Positions 10,009 to 55,089 of a DNA stretch of 55,089 bases are shown piece by piece. The notes under the pieces are model-generated. The model was not told where the DNA came from and made no database searches. It was given only the letters and a program-made list of their open reading frames with translations. The DNA lies in the IMG/VR virus record IMGVR_UViG_3300021091_000023; one strand, written 5' to 3'. Each line of letters starts with the position of its first letter. Position 1 is the stretch's first letter. Position numbers and translations under genes: made by a program. Source of the DNA: an uncultured virus (IMG/VR IMGVR_UViG_3300021091_000023) (taxonomy: Duplodnaviria; Heunggongvirae; Uroviricota; Caudoviricetes).

Positions 10009-11718
10009 ATGATAATTAATATAACAGGAGATACTGGTGGTGTTGAACCATATGACGTTTTTTTATGTGAACAAACCAACTATAGTTGTTTTTATATATC
10101 GGGACTAACATCAATCCCAGGAACAGTTGAAATAAATAGCCAATATTATTTTCCAAATGAATATTTGTTATATTTGAAAATTGTTGACACAATTGGTTGT
10201 GTCAAATTATTCCCTTTAGATTGTGGTCAATCAAAATTTGAATCAACTTGGGATACAAAAAATCTTGGTGTTTCAGCGGCAAACCAAATACAACTTCCTT
10301 TGGAGTCTTCTGGAGCATATAACTTCTTTATTGAATGGGGTGATGGAAATTATGATACAATTACAGTTTGGAATGATCCTGCAACATTACATACATACAC
10401 AACACCTGGACTATACACAATAAAGATTTATGGACAAATAGAAGGTTTTAGATTTAATTATGTTGGTGATAGAGAAAAAATATTAAGTATTCAATCTTGG
10501 GGTTCTGATTTTAGATTGGGTAATAATGGTGGATATTTTTACGGTTGCACAAATTTAGATTTAAGTTCAGTTTCAGATATTTTAGATTTGACAGGAACTT
10601 TATCTTTGTCTTCTGCTTTTAGTGATTGTGCGTCTCTTACAACGGTCAACAATATGAATTTGTGGGATACATCTTCTGTTACAAATATGAGTTTAATGTT
10701 TTTGTATGCAACATCATTTAATCAACCAATTGGAACTTGGGATACATCTTCCGTTACAGATATGCTTGGTATGTTTTTTAATGCAACATCATTCAATCAA
10801 CCAATTGGAACTTGGAATACATCTTCTGTTACAAATATGCGTCAAATGTTTGAAGATGCAACATCATTCAATCAACCAATTGGAACTTGGAATACATCTT
10901 CTGTTACAGATATGAGTTTAATGTTTTTTAATGCAACATCATTTAATCAACCAATTGGAACTTGGAATACATCTTCCGTTACAGATATGCTTGGTATGTT
11001 TGCTAATGCAACATCATTTAATCAACCAATTGGAACTTGGAATACATCTTCCGTTACAGATATGCTTGGTATGTTTTTTAATGCAACATCATACAATCAA
11101 CCAATTGGAACTTGGGATACATCTTCTGTTTCAAATATGGGTACTATGTTTAATGGTGCAACATCATTTAACCAACCAATTGGAACTTGGAATACATCTT
11201 CTGTTATAAATATGGGTGCTATGTTTTTAAATGCAACATCATTTAATCAACCAATTGGAACTTGGAATACATCTTCTGTTACAAATATGATTGAAATGTT
11301 TCTAGACGCAACATCATTTAATCAACCAATTGGAACTTGGAATACATCTTCTGTTACATTTATGGATAATATGTTTAATGGTGCAACATCATTTAACCAA
11401 CCAATTGGAACTTGGAATACATCTTCTGTTACAGATATGAATAATATGTTTCAAAATGCAACATCATTTGACCAAGATTTGGGTTCTTGGGATGTTACAT
11501 CATTAACATCCGCAGCAAATATGTTTTTAGGTGTTACACTATCAACACCAAACTATAATTCACTACTTATTGGTTGGGCATCATATGGTGGTGCTTTACA
11601 ATCTAACGTTCCTTTTCACGGAGGCGGTTCTATTTATACAATAGCAATAGCTGGTGCTTCGAGAAATTATTTAACAGGAACAAAATTATGGACAATCACC
11701 GACGGAGGTGGAATTTAA
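10009..11718 (+). CDS. DUF285/BspA-like (PARCEL) repeat protein with PKD-like domain, putative receptor-binding protein
   Basis: 11 x 25-aa [25 protein letters not shown] repeats, preceded by FFIEWGDG, ending in WTITDGG. Confidence 0.85.
10663..11487 (+). repeat. 75-bp coding tandem repeat, 11 units
   Basis: Nearly invariant gcaacatcatttaatcaaccaattggaacttggaatacatcttctgtt block alternating with variable codons. Confidence 0.95.
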
Positions 11719-32027: not shown

Positions 32028-32609
32028 ATGAGAAAGAAACAACCAAAACAAGATCCCGATTATATGTTATTTATTTTCGGAGATTTTGATGAACAAGAAA
32101 ACTTGGCAACAAATTTGTCGTCTCAGTTATTGACCGTTGTTAGTTCACCATTTTTAAAATTCACATACGGTGAGTATGGTGTTGTTTTTCATTTTAGAAG
32201 TAATGAAGTTTTTTCTGATCTTAAAGAGTATGTGGATATGGCCATGTCAGAAATTACAGAACAATACTTCTTAATGGAAGTAACTGAAAAAGTTGACATA
32301 AAAATGCCAAGAAAATTAAAGAAAGATTTTTTGAATATTGACGAAGAAGAAAAAAAGAAAGACACAAAAACAGAAGAAATCAATGTAGAAGCAAAAAGAA
32401 AAGAAAGAAGAGAAGAATTAAGAAATTTTACGTTTGAGTTTCTGATGCCAGCAGACTTTAATCAAATGGTTCAAAAAAACGAACCTGAGTATTTACCAAC
32501 GGTGGACGAAATATTAGACAAAATAACAGAGAAAGGAATTGATTCATTAACAGAGACAGAAAAAGAGATTTTAGACAACTATGGGAAAAGAAAAGATGGA
32601 GGACGTTAA
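32028..32609 (+). CDS. hypothetical protein with C-terminal DUF6576-like motif
   Basis: VDEILDKITEKGIDSLTETEKEIL; likely start 32028. Confidence 0.65.
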   Translation: MRKKQPKQDPDYMLFIFGDFDEQENLATNLSSQLLTVVSSPFLKFTYGEYGVVFHFRSNEVFSDLKEYVDMAMSEITEQYFLMEVTEKVDIKMPRKLKKDFLNIDEEEKKKDTKTEEINVEAKRKERREELRNFTFEFLMPADFNQMVQKNEPEYLPTVDEILDKITEKGIDSLTETEKEILDNYGKRKDGGR

Positions 32610-33396
32610 ATCGTCAAACCCTTTGAATCAGGATGAGATTCAAATTTATTTAAAAGACATTAGAAAACTGAAGATTATGACACCTGACAGAGAGAAGTTC
32701 TTAGCCGAACGTATAACATCAAATGATTGTACGGAAATAGAAAAAGAACAAATCCAAAAAGAAATGTTGGAAGGTAATTTACGATTTGTAATTACAGTAG
32801 CAAAACAATATCAAAATCAAGGTATTGATTTATCAGACCTAATTGCAGAAGGAAACTTTGGTCTTATGAAGGCAATTAAAAACTTTGATTGGAGTAAAAA
32901 CAATCGTTTTATATCATATGCTGTTTGGTGGATTAAACAGTCAATTTTACAATCACTTAATGAAAATTCAAGAACAATAAGACTTCCAGTTAATGTTGTT
33001 CAAGACATGCAAAAAGAAAAAAAAGAAAACGAGAAAACAAATAACGATCTTTCCCAAAAGTTTGCAACACTACCAAGAATGATTGATTTGGATATGCATA
33101 TCAATGAAGACGGTGACACATTAATAGACATTATTAAAAATGAAAATGTTGAATCACCAGATGAAATATTTTCAACAAAAGATTTATTGAAAGAAAAAAT
33201 GATGAAAATAATGGGAGTTTTAGATAAAAGAGAAAGAGTTATTGTTGAAGATTATTATGGAATTACAGGAACACCAAGAACATTAGAAGACATCGGATCT
33301 GATTTTAGTTTAACAAAAGAAAGGGTTAGACAAATTAAAGAGAAGGCTCTTCGTAAACTTAGAAACGAATGTTCAGATTTATTTGAATATTTATGA
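32581..33396 (+). CDS. rpoD: RNA polymerase sigma factor, Bacteroidota RpoD-like
   Basis: YLKDI, NLRFVITVAKQYQNQG, DLIAEGN.GL, FISYAVWWIKQSI, RTIRLP, TLEDIG...LTKERVRQIKEKALRKLR; lacks region 1.1. Confidence 0.93.
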   Translation: MGKEKMEDVKSSNPLNQDEIQIYLKDIRKLKIMTPDREKFLAERITSNDCTEIEKEQIQKEMLEGNLRFVITVAKQYQNQGIDLSDLIAEGNFGLMKAIKNFDWSKNNRFISYAVWWIKQSILQSLNENSRTIRLPVNVVQDMQKEKKENEKTNNDLSQKFATLPRMIDLDMHINEDGDTLIDIIKNENVESPDEIFSTKDLLKEKMMKIMGVLDKRERVIVEDYYGITGTPRTLEDIGSDFSLTKERVRQIKEKALRKLRNECSDLFEYL

Positions 33397-40387: not shown

Positions 40388-41012
40388 TTTTTAAACGGTA
40401 TAATCTTTTTTTCTCAAACCCCTTTTTACTTAAAACATCGTAAATCCATTTTCTCTGTGCGTTTGAAACATCTTTTACAAAGATGGCATCAGACCTTTTA
40501 TTTTGGTAAAAGTGCTCTTCTAAAATGTCAATAAATCTATGAGATTCATTACAATCTTTTAATGAGAAAATAACAACATCCTCATCTATCTGTACACATA
40601 TTTTGTTGTTTAAACTGAATATATTTTTGAGGTCTTTAGTTTTACAATATTCGTTAATAAAATCATGAACCCCTATTTTTTTTGATTTTTGCCAATCATA
40701 AATCAATTCTTCAACCTTAAACCTTGATATTTTAGTAAAAACATAATCAGGGTTTTCTAAATTTACAGTGATATTACGGCCTAAATTATCGGTTAAAAAT
40801 AAAGACTCTTGAATTTTTTTTTGATTTGTTATCAAACCTAATTCGTAATTTGTTTCTTCTGAGTTCTCTACAATTTTTTCAAATACAATTTTATCATTTT
40901 CTTTTAATAATGAATTATATTTTTCTATAGCCCTTTTTTCAGTATTATAACATTTGATAATTTTTCTTTTTTTCTTATTCTTAAACAAGACTATTATAAA
41001 TTTACTTTTCAT
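40368..41012 (-). CDS. hypothetical protein
   Basis: 214-aa minus-strand ORF with a clear switch in A/T skew. Confidence 0.75.
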   Translation of the reverse strand: MKSKFIIVLFKNKKKRKIIKCYNTEKRAIEKYNSLLKENDKIVFEKIVENSEETNYELGLITNQKKIQESLFLTDNLGRNITVNLENPDYVFTKISRFKVEELIYDWQKSKKIGVHDFINEYCKTKDLKNIFSLNNKICVQIDEDVVIFSLKDCNESHRFIDILEEHFYQNKRSDAIFVKDVSNAQRKWIYDVLSKKGFEKKRLYRLKTTFSKR

Positions 41013-41988
41013 GAAGAACTATTACGAAATTTTAGGTGTGGGTGAAGAAGCCACACAAGACGATATTAAAAAATCTTATAGAAAATTAAGTAAACAATAT
41101 CATCCAGATGTAAACCCTGAAGGTGAAGAAAAATTTAAAGACATTTCAGAAGCATATGATAATATTGGAGAACCTAAAAAAAGAGAAGAATACGATATAA
41201 GACGTAAAAATCCATTTAGTCATATGGGGTCTGGTGGATTTGACATACATAGTATGTTTGAACAAATGATGGGACAACAAAGAAGACAACCAAAAGCACC
41301 TGATAAAATTGTCGAAGTGGTATTGACTCCCGTTGAGTCTTTTTTTGGTGTAAAAAAAGATATTGAATTTGAAAGTTTTGAAAAATGTGATCCATGTAAT
41401 GGTAGTGGTGGAGAAAGAAACACATGTAACGTTTGTAATGGATCGGGTGTGGTCATACAAGTTTTAGGGACTGGCCTTTTCAGACAACAAATACAAATGA
41501 CATGTGGCCAGTGCAAGGGACATGGATTTACAATTTCAATAAAATGCACAACATGTAATGCCACAGGTACAAATAAAAAAAATCAAAAGTATAACGTAAC
41601 AATTCCTAAAAATATTGATGACGGTGACTTTTTAAGATTAAAAGAAAAAGGAGATTATCACCCTAATATAAGATTGAAAGGTGATGTTATTTTAAAAGTA
41701 ACCATGAATAATTCTGGCGATTATGAAAAGATTGGCATGGATTTGGTATTAAAAAAGAAACTTGACGCATATGACTTTTTTACTTCTGATACTGTTTCAA
41801 TAGAACACCCTGAAGGTGAATTGAAAATAAAACTACCGGATAATGTCGACACAGAAAAACCTTTAAGAATACCTAATAAAGGGTTTAATAATCAGCACCA
41901 AAAAGGTAATTTCTTTATTAAACTTTCAGTAAAAAAAGATCAAGAAACTAGAGAAAAATTAAAAAATATTTTAAAAGAAGTTAATTAA
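41011..41988 (+). CDS. dnaJ: DnaJ chaperone
   Basis: NYYEILGV, HPD, G/F region, four CxxCxGxG-type repeats, C-terminal domain. Confidence 0.93.
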   Translation: MKNYYEILGVGEEATQDDIKKSYRKLSKQYHPDVNPEGEEKFKDISEAYDNIGEPKKREEYDIRRKNPFSHMGSGGFDIHSMFEQMMGQQRRQPKAPDKIVEVVLTPVESFFGVKKDIEFESFEKCDPCNGSGGERNTCNVCNGSGVVIQVLGTGLFRQQIQMTCGQCKGHGFTISIKCTTCNATGTNKKNQKYNVTIPKNIDDGDFLRLKEKGDYHPNIRLKGDVILKVTMNNSGDYEKIGMDLVLKKKLDAYDFFTSDTVSIEHPEGELKIKLPDNVDTEKPLRIPNKGFNNQHQKGNFFIKLSVKKDQETREKLKNILKEVN

Positions 41989-52254: not shown

Positions 52255-54396
52255 ATGAAAAGACTAATTAAAGAATCAGGAATTAGGGATATTAATAAAC
52301 TAGCAAAAAGATACAAAAAAGCTAAAATTTATTTTCACCAAGATTTAGACGGCGTAACAACAGCCTTAGCAATGAAAAACTACCTCGAACAACATGGGAT
52401 AAGAGTTATTGACGCTGAAGTAATTCAATATGGTAATAAAGAATTTGCAATTAAAAAACCTGAAGGTGAGGGTGATGTGATGCCAGTATTAGTTGATTTT
52501 GCACACGGTAAACCGATGTTTGTTATACATACAGACCACCACGACAGTCAAGCGGGGGTTGAAAGTGACACCGCAACAAGTTTTAGGCACGCAAGATCTA
52601 ACGTGGAAACAATATCTCAAATATTATCACCAAAAGAAATTTTCACAGCAGAAGATATATTATTGATATCAACGGTTGATTCTGCAAATTTTGTAGCAAA
52701 TAAAATAACACCTGAAATGGTGATGAACTATCTTTTCAAATACGACAAAAACGAAACATTAAAAAGAAATAAAATGTTAATGGGACTTGTCGTTAATAAA
52801 CTACTTTTAGCGTATAAAGGTAAACCTAATTTTTTGGAAGATATTGTTTTAAACGCAAAACCATCCCTTTTAAGTATTTTGAATTTCATAAAAAAAGTAG
52901 CATTAGAAAAGGGGTATGCGAGCCCTGAAATATTAACAAAAAACACCGAAGATTATGTACAAAGTAGAAAAGATTCGGGTGTTGAGGTAACAGGTAATAT
53001 TCTATCACAATATGGTTTTGGATCAACAATGAAACCAGGTGCTTACGATAGATATACACCATTTAGAAACAATCCTGACGCTGATTTCCTTGTCACAGGA
53101 ATGCCTTTTGGTACAGTTCAAGCATCATGTAACCCCTTCAAAGAAAGTAGGGCACTTAAAGGCATAAATTTAGGTGAGATAAAAGATCAAGTTTTATTAG
53201 ATTTCAAACCGGAGTTAGAAAAACAAATACTACCATTTAGAACTATCAAAAGAATTGCAGAAAAAGAAGCGACAAAAGAATCTGTAGGATTCACATCAAG
53301 AGATATGATGGCGCTTTATGGATCGATGCCATCATACAATCCCGAAACACAATCAATTAACGGATACGATTTTTTGGTTGCAAATTCAGGAGGACACAAA
53401 TGTATCACAAATATTTCAGGAATTAATTTTATGTATAGTGGTTATGACAAACCATACACCAAAGATTTACCAAAAGAGGCAATTCCTATTGCGTTCTACG
53501 AAGGTCAAAATTCATTCATAAAAGATATAAAACAAAAACTTTTAAGATTTAGAAAATTATCTGAAAAACAAATTCAAGCAGCAATCAGTGGAATGAAAAG
53601 AGAGGGTGTTGATACTGAGTCATTAATGAATCAAAAACAAGAAAGAGGTTATTTAGATTTAGTAAAGGAGATTAAAGATCGTTTTGTTGACATTTTAAAT
53701 GAAAAAATGAATTCAGAAAATACAAATATTCGAGAATCTAAAGAAGAAAGTAAAAAATATTATGTTGATAAAAGTAAATTAGGTGGTAAGGGGGTATTTG
53801 CAAAAAAAGATTTAAAAAAGGGAGAAACGATAGGACTATTACACACAATTAAAAAAATGCATATTGACTACGAATTCACAGAATTAGGTAAAATGCACAA
53901 TCATAAAGACGAACCTAATTGTCATAATGAAAGAATTAATAATAAAAGATACTTGGTTGCATCAAAAAATATCAAAAAAGGTGAAGAACTAACAACAGAT
54001 TATAGACTACAACCGGACTTAGAACAACCACAAGATTGGTTCAAAGGTTTAAAAGAACAACACGAAAAAATGTGGCCACAAAAAGATGGTTACAGGACGT
54101 ATAGTCCATTTAAAGATTTAGAATATATCATAGTCGATGGTAATGGTATTGATTGCGACAATATTGTTTATGATCTCATATTAATTGGTGATAATGGTAG
54201 TTTAAGGTTTTGCAAAAAAAATACTGGTTCATATTTTTTACCGGGAGCCAATAAAGTTGTTGAAATACCTTTAAAAGATGGTGAAGATGGTGATATGTTT
54301 TTAGAAGACAAAAAAATGTTTATTAATTGGTTACATAATAAATTAAGAAAAATTGATAAAGATAGTGAAATAAGAGAAAAAATATTGCACTTTTGA
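52255..54396 (+). CDS. DHH phosphoesterase - SET domain fusion protein
   Basis: FHQDLDG, LVDF, TDHH and GGH; then GKGVFAKKDLKKGE, HNHKDEPNC, IKKGEELTTDY. TATTTAT at 52243. Confidence 0.85.
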   Translation: MKRLIKESGIRDINKLAKRYKKAKIYFHQDLDGVTTALAMKNYLEQHGIRVIDAEVIQYGNKEFAIKKPEGEGDVMPVLVDFAHGKPMFVIHTDHHDSQAGVESDTATSFRHARSNVETISQILSPKEIFTAEDILLISTVDSANFVANKITPEMVMNYLFKYDKNETLKRNKMLMGLVVNKLLLAYKGKPNFLEDIVLNAKPSLLSILNFIKKVALEKGYASPEILTKNTEDYVQSRKDSGVEVTGNILSQYGFGSTMKPGAYDRYTPFRNNPDADFLVTGMPFGTVQASCNPFKESRALKGINLGEIKDQVLLDFKPELEKQILPFRTIKRIAEKEATKESVGFTSRDMMALYGSMPSYNPETQSINGYDFLVANSGGHKCITNISGINFMYSGYDKPYTKDLPKEAIPIAFYEGQNSFIKDIKQKLLRFRKLSEKQIQAAISGMKREGVDTESLMNQKQERGYLDLVKEIKDRFVDILNEKMNSENTNIRESKEESKKYYVDKSKLGGKGVFAKKDLKKGETIGLLHTIKKMHIDYEFTELGKMHNHKDEPNCHNERINNKRYLVASKNIKKGEELTTDYRLQPDLEQPQDWFKGLKEQHEKMWPQKDGYRTYSPFKDLEYIIVDGNGIDCDNIVYDLILIGDNGSLRFCKKNTGSYFLPGANKVVEIPLKDGEDGDMFLEDKKMFINWLHNKLRKIDKDSEIREKILHF

Positions 54397-54457
54397 TTAA
54401 CAATGATATATTTATAAAATACCTCTGACAAAATTCATTATTTTTTAAGAAAAAAAA

Positions 54458-54488
54458 TTGACATTTTATAATAAATGTTTTAGATTTG
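54458..54488 (+). promoter_or_regulatory. early promoter (hybrid consensus)
   Basis: TTGACA-17 nt-TAGATTTG, equivalent to TTG-20-TAnnTTTG; followed by hairpin attagga-aacg-tcctaat (54496-54513). Confidence 0.7.
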
Positions 54489-54536
54489 TAAAACAATTAG
54501 GAAACGTCCTAATGATAATTTGAAAAATTGAAAAAA

Positions 54537-54680
54537 ATGAGTGAAGATCAACAAATTGTAAACGAAATTTACGCTTACATTAATGACAAAGGTCAGAGAC
54601 TATTTACACCTAATTATCAGTTCGCTGAAATTATGGCAAATAAATACGGAACCAATAAGGTGTACGTAGAAAAAAACTAA
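54537..54680 (+). CDS. 47-aa small protein (not in ORF track)
   Basis: MSEDQQIVNEIYAYINDKGQRLFTPNYQFAEIMANKYGTNKVYVEKN, with an A-rich start after the promoter. Confidence 0.7.
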   Translation: MSEDQQIVNEIYAYINDKGQRLFTPNYQFAEIMANKYGTNKVYVEKN

Positions 54681-54699
54681 AAAAAAGTCCACAAGGTAC

Positions 54700-54730
54700 T
54701 TGTCTAATTGAAAAAAAAGACTTAACTTTG
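54700..54730 (+). promoter_or_regulatory. Bacteroidota consensus promoter
   Basis: TTG-20 nt-TAACTTTG. Confidence 0.7.
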
Positions 54731-54736
54731 TAAAAG

Positions 54737-55089
54737 ATTTGAAACTGAAGGGGATGAAAGATACTCGTTGTCGAATCACAAAACGTTCTTTGAAAAACTA
54801 AAACCGACTGAAATGGTCGTCACAATTAAAAAAAAGCGAATTAACACCTCCCTTTCTTTAAGTGTGAAACTAAATTAAGTCATTGGGCCGTGTATGGTCC
54901 ATTAAAATAAACCACGAAAGTGGGATAAAGTGAACCTGAAGTGTAACGGGTTTGCGTCTTGGTGAGTCTTCGGATTTGTCGAGGTCGAGTACACAAGCGG
55001 GATACCGTTTAACCTTTAGTACCGAGGGCAACGCTGTAGGGAAAGTGGTTCGACGAACTGGCAATGTGGGTTGTCAGTTTGAGGTGGGA
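54737..55089 (+). ncRNA. large structured ncRNA, 3' truncated (family unassigned)
   Basis: GC rise, no plus-strand ORF, and serial hairpins rich in G-U pairs with GAAA and cUUCGg tetraloops. Confidence 0.75.

What the first reader, a model, noticed from the sequence alone, without database searches (positions are those of the whole stretch)
54737..55089. Large structured ncRNA starting at its own promoter
Stems read directly: gggccg/tggtcc (54885-54900), ccac-GAAA-gtgg (54912-54923), aacctg/cgggtt (54933-54952), a 12-bp tcttggtgagtc-TTCG-gatttgtcgagg (54957-54984), aagcgg-gata-ccgttt (54995-55010) and aactggcaat-gtgg-gttgtcagtt (55056-55079). The many G-U pairs fix the plus strand. It does not look like tRNA or rRNA. 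It may be a GOLLD/ROOL-class giant phage RNA or a new class; I cannot assign the family.
Basis: partly seen in the sequence, partly recalled or inferred. Interest (0 to 1): 0.75.

Follow-up and report, generated by a model that had tools for sequence, protein, structure and literature searches.

The report
Front end of phage GOLLD RNA
The stretch is the first quarter of a GOLLD RNA, a known roughly 800-base non-coding RNA of phages that self-assembles into hollow cages, cut off here by the end of the sequence, so it is real but ordinary.

Summary
The RNA is real and is a lake-type GOLLD, cut by the window end. Rfam misses it here because its model covers only the 3' half, expected at about 55290-55700. 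Relatives supply that half: 20 of 20 loci tested score 275-328 bits (cut-off 150), including 8 of 8 near relatives. By eye, 54884-55089 lines up with nucleotides ~4-203 of cryo-EM-solved env-38 GOLLD, cage-contact residues included. The conserved RNA starts near 54884, not 54737. The 150 bases before it are a variable leader with a Bacteroidota-type promoter and a boxA-like box also found in 40 of 98 Bacteroidota rRNA leaders, suggesting rRNA-style antitermination (inferred). The scan has already reported GOLLD, and GOLLD behind a boxA leader, on other genomes. Likeliest role: an abundant cage acting on the translation machinery during infection (about 0.4, untested). New member of a known family; low interest.

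The parts
54700..54730 (+). Bacteroidota-type promoter: TTG at 54700 and -7 box TAnnTTTG at 54723-54730; start expected near 54736-54737 (spacing recalled, not mapped)
   Evidence: a TAnnTTTG lies upstream of the box in 60 of 61 distinct leaders by pattern (the 61st, L002, shows it by eye); -7 consensus from PMC7641319 passages
54785..54796 (+). boxA-like element GTTCTTTGAAAA
   Evidence: 60 of 61 distinct GOLLD leaders; exact 9-mer in 40 of 98 Bacteroidota 16S leaders, 0 of 98 in each of two controls; resembles E. coli and B. subtilis boxA as given in PMC13753749
54737..54883 (+). variable 5' leader, weakly structured; one 4-bp hairpin 54805-54808/54816-54819
   Evidence: z -0.14; consensus of 21 leaders of this clade gives only 4 pairs, -2.2 kcal/mol; length varies by more than 100 bases among relatives
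54884..55089 (+). 5' (cap) domain of GOLLD RNA, first ~205 of ~815 nt; runs off the window end
   Evidence: up to 98% identical to loci with a full Rfam GOLLD 3' half; element-by-element match to env-38 nt ~4-203 by eye; covariation
   Evidence: hairpin 91% paired; pseudoknot 6 pairs 99.3% paired, two pairs with double changes in 8 and 25 of 71 sequences
54912..54923 (+). GAAA-tetraloop hairpin (stem 2); 54917-54918 correspond to env-38 A34/A35, donors of intermolecular bridge B1
   Evidence: 100% paired, 3 of 4 pairs covary; loop invariant in 71 of 71; bridge residues from PMC12286853 suppl. Table 2
   Evidence: 95-100% paired with many double changes; columns 102-115 filled in 14 of 71 sequences
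54998..55001 (+). 5' strand of a long-range helix whose partner lies about 20 bases past the window end
   Evidence: complementary in 41 of 43 distinct pairs by pattern (other 2 by eye), with three compensated variants
55006..55055 (+). long helix 55006-55014/55047-55055 with apical hairpin 55022-55040; 55026 and 55032 correspond to env-38 G140 and C146 of bridge B2.
   Evidence: 98.1% and 100% paired; both bridge positions invariant; note 55036-55050 was the search pattern, so it is fixed by selection
55056..55089 (+). hairpin 55056-55079 (stem 6) and the first half of the next hairpin, whose GGAA loop (55087-) carries env-38 A203/A204 of bridge B3
   Evidence: 99.3% and 100% paired
54540..54680 (+). 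46-aa ORF of no known family directly upstream of the promoter; travels with many of these GOLLD genes
   Evidence: no Pfam hit; homologue within 900 bases upstream in 40 of 60 distinct loci

Best explanation
54884-55089 is the first quarter of a ~815-nt lake-type GOLLD RNA in a large freshwater phage, probably of Bacteroidota. Step 1 (motifs shown, use inferred): host-type RNA polymerase starts near 54737 at a TAnnTTTG promoter. Step 2 (inferred, ~0.65): the boxA-like box at 54785 loads the host NusB/S10 antitermination complex, as on rRNA operons, so that a long untranslated RNA is finished. Step 3 (inferred, ~0.7): the variable 150-nt leader is trimmed or left unstructured; the conserved RNA begins near 54884 and in relatives ends at a hairpin plus U tract. 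Step 4 (secondary structure shown by covariation; assembly inferred from env-38, ~0.8): the 5' domain seen here forms the cap of an RNA-only homo-oligomeric cage, most likely a 14-mer like env-38. Step 5 (not shown, ~0.4, my commitment on function): the abundant, stable cage belongs to the phage's translation-support kit (tRNAs, tmRNA, bS21) and binds or shelters ribosomes or tRNAs during lytic growth. The confidence below is for identity as GOLLD.
For: Rfam GOLLD, full model, 275-328 bits (cut-off 150) on the same strand about 252 bases after the shared motif in 12 of 12 loci and 8 of 8 near relatives (9 found, 1 ends too early), which are syntenic with the window over kilobases and up to 98% identical over 54884-55089. 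Match to env-38 by eye, with bridge residues B1, B2 and part of B3 in place. 60-pair structure 98.0% paired, 36 pairs with double changes, 0 of 500 shuffles as high, slid controls 34-42%. Whole RNA 792-817 nt in 52 of 55 distinct loci (3 lacked the end anchor). tRNA or tmRNA within the fetched flanks in 10 of 12 and 5 of 8 loci; bS21 in 3 of 4 related records. RNA-library contigs of three studies cover only 54680/54831-55089 of 53600-55089 (a hint only).
Against: The 3' half is not in the window and the window's own assembly is not held; the nearest record has no matching stretch, so this genome's own 3' half was never seen. Rfam gives nothing in the window. The homologue set was selected by an exact 15-mer and holds many close relatives, which inflates conservation and shuffle controls. 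The boxA 9-mer is not enriched genome-wide (27 matches against 22 for the reversed control in 5 records), and the 642-kb phage LR756502 has no exact box before its GOLLD. The nearest relative searched (a fragment) had no bS21. No start site, binding, assembly or function was measured; read data are contigs, from runs chosen because they hold this stretch, and may include DNA.
Confidence: 0.96

Rival explanations
1. Same RNA, other job: the cage is a decoy or sponge that absorbs host anti-phage nucleases or RNA-sensing defence proteins, rather than acting on ribosomes or tRNAs.
For: Stand-alone, probably highly expressed gene; multivalent stable cage (PMC12286853 sections read); sits among tRNA/tmRNA genes, which phages are thought to carry against RNA-cleaving defences (recalled).
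Against: No test here. Kretsch et al. cite ribosome pull-down for GOLLD and tRNAs inside the linker, which fit the translation reading better.
Confidence: 0.25
2. The mature RNA starts at the promoter (54737) and the leader is a working 5' part of it.
For: RNA-library contigs reach into the leader (from 54831 in two runs, 54680 in one); within this clade the leader is 75-95% conserved and has a small covarying hairpin.
Against: Leader folds at chance level; box-to-RNA distance 39-150 bases across relatives; the env-38 construct that forms the cage starts at the equivalent of ~54884; in run X18 the contig over the leader has depth 30 against 114-840 for single contigs in the body (contig depth is a poor measure).
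Confidence: 0.15
3. This genome's copy is truncated or decayed; only the 5' piece is left.
For: The 3' half is not seen for this genome.
Against: All conserved helices are intact and changes are compensated; 8 of 8 near relatives are complete; a contig of a DNA run holding 97% of the stretch's words matches 55021-55089 without a difference and runs on past the end (record 7). A break inside a conserved RNA shared by co-occurring phages is what assemblers produce (inference).
Confidence: 0.03
4. A new, separate RNA class that merely lies upstream of GOLLD.
For: No Rfam family matches the window stretch even at E up to 10 except AT-rich chance hits.
Against: It matches the 5' end of the solved env-38 GOLLD; a covarying helix ties it to sequence downstream; constant ~800-nt span.
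Confidence: 0.01

Closest known systems
GOLLD RNA, env-38 type (Rfam RF02032; cryo-EM 14-mer cage, Kretsch et al. 2025, PMC12286853)
   Same: Same order of 5' elements (hairpin with pseudoknot loop, GAAA hairpin, two hairpins, long helix with apical triloop, hairpin, GGAA hairpin), same bridge residues B1/B2/B3, same ~800-nt span and 3' domain in relatives, phage and tRNA-region context.
   Different: Stem sequences differ; the long helix is shorter in its distal part than in env-38 (by eye); this copy has its own promoter and a 150-nt leader, whereas env-38 is described as lying downstream of a tRNA-Met; only the first quarter is in the window.
Streptococcus agalactiae GOLLD (700 nt, dodecamer; review PMC12990946, passages)
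   Same: Shares the conserved 3' domain family and cage-forming behaviour.
   Different: Lacks P9, P11a-c and P21b and parts of P7 and P10 per the review; the copy here is of the longer lake type, so a 14-mer is the better guess.
rRNA operon leader with boxA (NusB/S10 antitermination; PMC13753749, passages)
   Same: Promoter, then a short box of the same sequence as in 40 of 98 Bacteroidota 16S leaders, then 40-150 bases to a long stable RNA; the same arrangement precedes tRNAs in two related phages.
   Different: Drives a phage non-coding RNA; NusB binding shown for E. coli and B. subtilis boxes, not for this one; not present as an exact match before every GOLLD.
ROOL RNA (Rfam)
   Same: Large ornate phage/prophage RNA near tRNAs that forms cages.
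   Different: No ROOL match in the window or in 20 related loci; unrelated sequence and structure per PMC12286853.

Membership tests
GOLLD RNA | Conserved 3' domain scoring above the Rfam RF02032 cut-off, in this genome | not testable with these tools
   Expected at ~55290-55700, past the window end; own assembly not held, nearest record lacks the region.
GOLLD RNA | Conserved 3' domain at the fixed distance in homologous loci | tested here: met
   12 of 12 and 8 of 8 near relatives, 275-328 bits against a cut-off of 150; 20 of about 113 homologous loci were sent.
GOLLD RNA | 5' domain homologous to that of a structurally solved GOLLD | tested here: met
   Compared by eye with env-38 in PMC12286853 suppl. 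Table 4, no score computed; covariation of the same helices and pseudoknot.
GOLLD RNA | Length about 700-830 nt | tested here: met
   792-817 nt in 52 of 55 distinct relatives; not measurable for the window itself.
GOLLD RNA | Residues of the intermolecular bridges conserved | tested here: met
   B1 donors (54917-54918), B2 (55026, 55032) invariant in 71 of 71; B3 loop begins at the window end. B4-B10 lie outside the window and were not checked.
GOLLD RNA | Phage or prophage location, often near tRNA genes | tested here: met
   Window genes are phage-like and homologues are in viral contigs; tRNA/tmRNA near 10 of 12 and 5 of 8 loci; none inside the window.
GOLLD RNA | Expressed as an abundant RNA | tested here: inconclusive
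   Contigs of 3 of 3 RNA runs laid cover the RNA part but not the upstream gene; contigs only, from relatives, runs chosen for holding the stretch.
GOLLD RNA | Self-assembly into a 10- to 14-mer cage | not testable with these tools
   Needs mass photometry or cryo-EM.
ROOL, RNase P, tmRNA, group I/II intron, tRNA, rRNA | Match to the family's Rfam model at this position | tested here: not met
   None in the window or at the homologous position in 20 loci; tmRNA occurs only as a separate neighbouring gene.
rRNA-type boxA antitermination leader | Box sequence shared with host rRNA leaders, downstream of a promoter | tested here: met
   60 of 61 phage leaders; 40 of 98 host leaders exact, controls 0 of 98.
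rRNA-type boxA antitermination leader | NusB/S10 binding and read-through of terminators | not testable with these tools
   Needs binding and reporter assays.

The most novel reading that the evidence does not exclude
These phages make GOLLD as a pseudo-rRNA: the boxA leader recruits the host's rRNA antitermination and co-transcriptional folding machinery, so that at high output GOLLD both gets folded like rRNA and draws Nus factors and processing enzymes away from host ribosome synthesis; in this clade the leader also carries a near copy of the host 16S 3' tail (54842-54856) that could act on Shine-Dalgarno-bearing host messages such as rpsU. The first half (Nus loading) is likely; the competition and the anti-SD action are speculation. 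The scan has noted the boxA leader before.
Probability: 0.12. Interest if true: 0.6.

Novelty: new member of a known kind. Interest (0 to 1): 0.15.

Why it matters
As a sequence it adds one more, incomplete, member to a family with hundreds of known members (806 non-redundant in PMC12286853). Two things are of use. Rfam's model misses the 5' half of lake-type GOLLD, so windows cut like this one look like a new RNA. And the conserved promoter-plus-boxA leader gives a testable handle on how GOLLD is made (like rRNA), which I did not find in print in the searches (open-access library only), though other reports of this scan already describe it. GOLLD's function remains open and this window does not make it more testable than published members.

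Tried and rejected
Rfam on the window at gathering and at E up to 10: nothing real. Own assembly not held; nearest record G001 has only a 21-base match. Related-locus search with the 46-aa ORF could not run (too short). A 2.1-kb alignment of all loci timed out. 16 of the 120 pattern hits were unrelated and were dropped. A conserved hairpin around the CACCTCC motif in the leader was suggested by single folds but not by the consensus of 21 leaders; the motif is in 17 of 61 leaders only. Leader identities are unreliable for distant loci (alignments collapsed) and are used only within the clade. Genome-wide enrichment of the boxA 9-mer: none. A metagenome scan for the window's last 43 bases gave 6 loci, which I did not analyse further; several repeat contigs already held by length, and none was shown to be this genome. 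Lack of RNA-contig cover over 53600-54650 is not taken as proof that the gene is silent. Morgado et al. 2020 is not held; Weinberg et al. 2009 was not seen. No complex or protein-structure job was sent, as no protein binding is claimed.

Full report
Observation. All six stems are at the stated coordinates. GC content rises from 17-31% upstream to 41% at 54800-54999. 54880-55089 folds at z -3.0 on the + strand and z +0.78 on the - strand; from 54740 the z-score is only -1.32, and the leader alone is at chance. No ORF of note covers the stretch. Rfam and ARAGORN find nothing in the window.

Setting. The window is AT-rich and phage-like, with DNA methylase, sigma-70, DnaJ, primase-like and SbcC-like genes. 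Its assembly is not held. Fourteen lake-water DNA runs hold 90-97% of the stretch's words, five flagged as possible source. BLAST against deposited phages hits two unannotated 635- and 642-kb phages. A Bacteroidota host is inferred from the promoter type and from bS21 in 3 of 4 related records, which recalls the 293-331-kb bS21 phages with predicted Bacteroidetes hosts (PMC9723584, passages; GOLLD is not mentioned there). Whether this phage belongs to those clades was not tested.

Identity. Rfam on 10 of these plus the two deposited phages gave a full-length GOLLD match in 12 of 12, 275-328 bits against a cut-off of 150. A second pattern gave 9 near relatives; the 8 with enough downstream DNA all carry GOLLD at 314-323 bits, share kilobases of upstream genes with the window at 77-89%, and reach 98% identity over 54884-55089 (median of 55 distinct loci 81%). 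The model begins about 252 bases after the 15-mer, i.e. near 55290, outside the window: this is why the window has no hit. From first hairpin to 3' end the RNA is 792-817 nt in 52 of 55 loci, most ending in a hairpin plus U tract. The env-38 GOLLD sequence in supplementary Table 4 of Kretsch et al. 2025 (PMC12286853) was compared by eye only, so no alignment score exists: its nucleotides ~4-203 follow 54884-55089 element by element, and the residues of intermolecular bridges B1 (A34, A35), B2 (G140, C146) and B3 (A203) fall on 54917-54918, 55026/55032 and 55089, the first four invariant in 71 of 71 sequences.

Structure. On 70 distinct homologues plus the window (from 105 loci long enough) RNAalifold predicts 55 pairs, 31 with changes on both sides. 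Revisions: a pseudoknot between 54890-54895 and 54989-54994 (99.3%); a helix 55006-55014/55047-55055 with an apical hairpin; and pairing of 54998-55001 with a strand just past the window end (41 of 43 distinct cases by pattern, 2 more by eye). Caveats: the set was chosen by an exact motif that fixes 55036-55050, many sequences are close kin, and the revised structure was derived from this alignment.

Leader. A TAnnTTTG box (the -7 consensus of Flavobacterium and Bacteroides, PMC7641319, passages) lies at 54723-54730 with TTG 23 bases before; GTTCTTTGA follows at 54785. Both are found in 60 of 61 distinct leaders, while the distance from the box to the RNA varies from 39 to 150 bases, so the conserved RNA starts near 54884. 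In 98 of 121 loci of Bacteroidota-type 16S genes with at least 300 upstream bases, 40 have the exact 9-mer, against 0 and 0 in two controls; 49 have a relaxed box within 120 bases of a TAnnTTTG. In two related phages the same promoter and box precede tRNA genes (L146, L158). It resembles the boxA consensus of E. coli and B. subtilis, shown to bind NusB (PMC13753749, passages); the label boxA for the Bacteroidota box is my inference. Against: the 8-mer promoter motif is common (108 in the window), the box is not enriched genome-wide (27 against 22 control matches) and LR756502 has no exact box before its GOLLD.

Expression. Contigs of three RNA runs from three studies lie only on 54680-55089 (9, 6 and 6 of 30 bins), a DNA run on all 30. 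In X18 the contig across the leader has depth 30, those in the body 114-840 among the listed longer pieces. These are contigs of relatives, from runs picked for holding the stretch, without strand or ends: a hint, no more.

Mechanism. See Best explanation. Shown here: identity by homology, covarying structure, conserved leader motifs. From the literature: env-38 forms a D7 14-mer with the 5' domain as cap, stable at low concentration; function unknown; expression rises during lysis; ribosome pull-down and tRNAs in the linker are cited (PMC12286853 sections 7, 8, 9, 19, 23 and supplementary file 1 read; file 2 is a scan and one spreadsheet too large, so their content is unseen; review PMC12990946, passages). 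Inferred: Nus loading, leader trimming, cage formation by this copy, role on the translation machinery (about 0.4; decoy about 0.25).

Novelty. GOLLD is a described family. A search for GOLLD listed 30 of 34 papers (listing only); GOLLD with boxA gave 4 unrelated plant papers, GOLLD with antitermination 4 listings not read for this point; some searches gave listings only, apart from the papers named above. Subscription papers, including the original description, are outside the library. I had the boxA reading before consulting the scan's notes (stated), which report GOLLD and the boxA leader on other genomes. Verdict: real, new member of a known kind, interest 0.15.

Noticed in passing
window 52255-54396 (+): 713-aa ORF with a weak DHH-family N-terminal match and a SET domain at residues 534-583 (E 6e-11). 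Similarity to near relatives stops at ~53700 and resumes at ~54380, and the relative L127 has a 579-aa version with another tail, so the SET part looks like a swapped-in module.
   Followed up: partly
window 54540-54680 (+): 46-aa ORF of no Pfam family, with its own TAnnTTTG box at 54481, found upstream of GOLLD in 40 of 60 distinct loci.
   Followed up: partly
window 54842-54856 (+): Leader motif matching the 3' tail of Bacteroidota 16S rRNA (anti-Shine-Dalgarno region; seen in 3 of 5 genomes searched) with one extra C; present in 17 of 61 leaders, one clade; no conserved hairpin around it.
   Followed up: partly
L053, L087, L089, L112: GOLLD variants with extra hairpins inserted between the first hairpin and the GAAA hairpin; L087 is the single row that breaks the pseudoknot in the alignment, because trimming cut off its true first hairpin.
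   Followed up: no
L002 3773-4190, L010 368-762, L025 5543-5937, L081 5597-5998: Phage tmRNA genes within 3 kb of GOLLD in 4 of 12 loci.
   Followed up: no
L146 ~1500, L148 ~1500, L158 ~1500, L160 ~1500: The same box, with or without the promoter, directly before or after phage tRNA genes: a general stable-RNA signal in these phages.
   Followed up: partly
L005, L008, L037, L038, L047, L052 leaders: Two tandem copies of the promoter in front of GOLLD, as in rRNA operons (by eye).
   Followed up: no
window 10009-11718 (+): 569-aa protein with about ten near-identical 25-residue repeats; not searched.
   Followed up: no
window 32581-33396 and 40954-41988 (+): Phage-borne sigma-70-family factor and full DnaJ; the sigma factor could be what reads the GOLLD promoter.
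   Followed up: no
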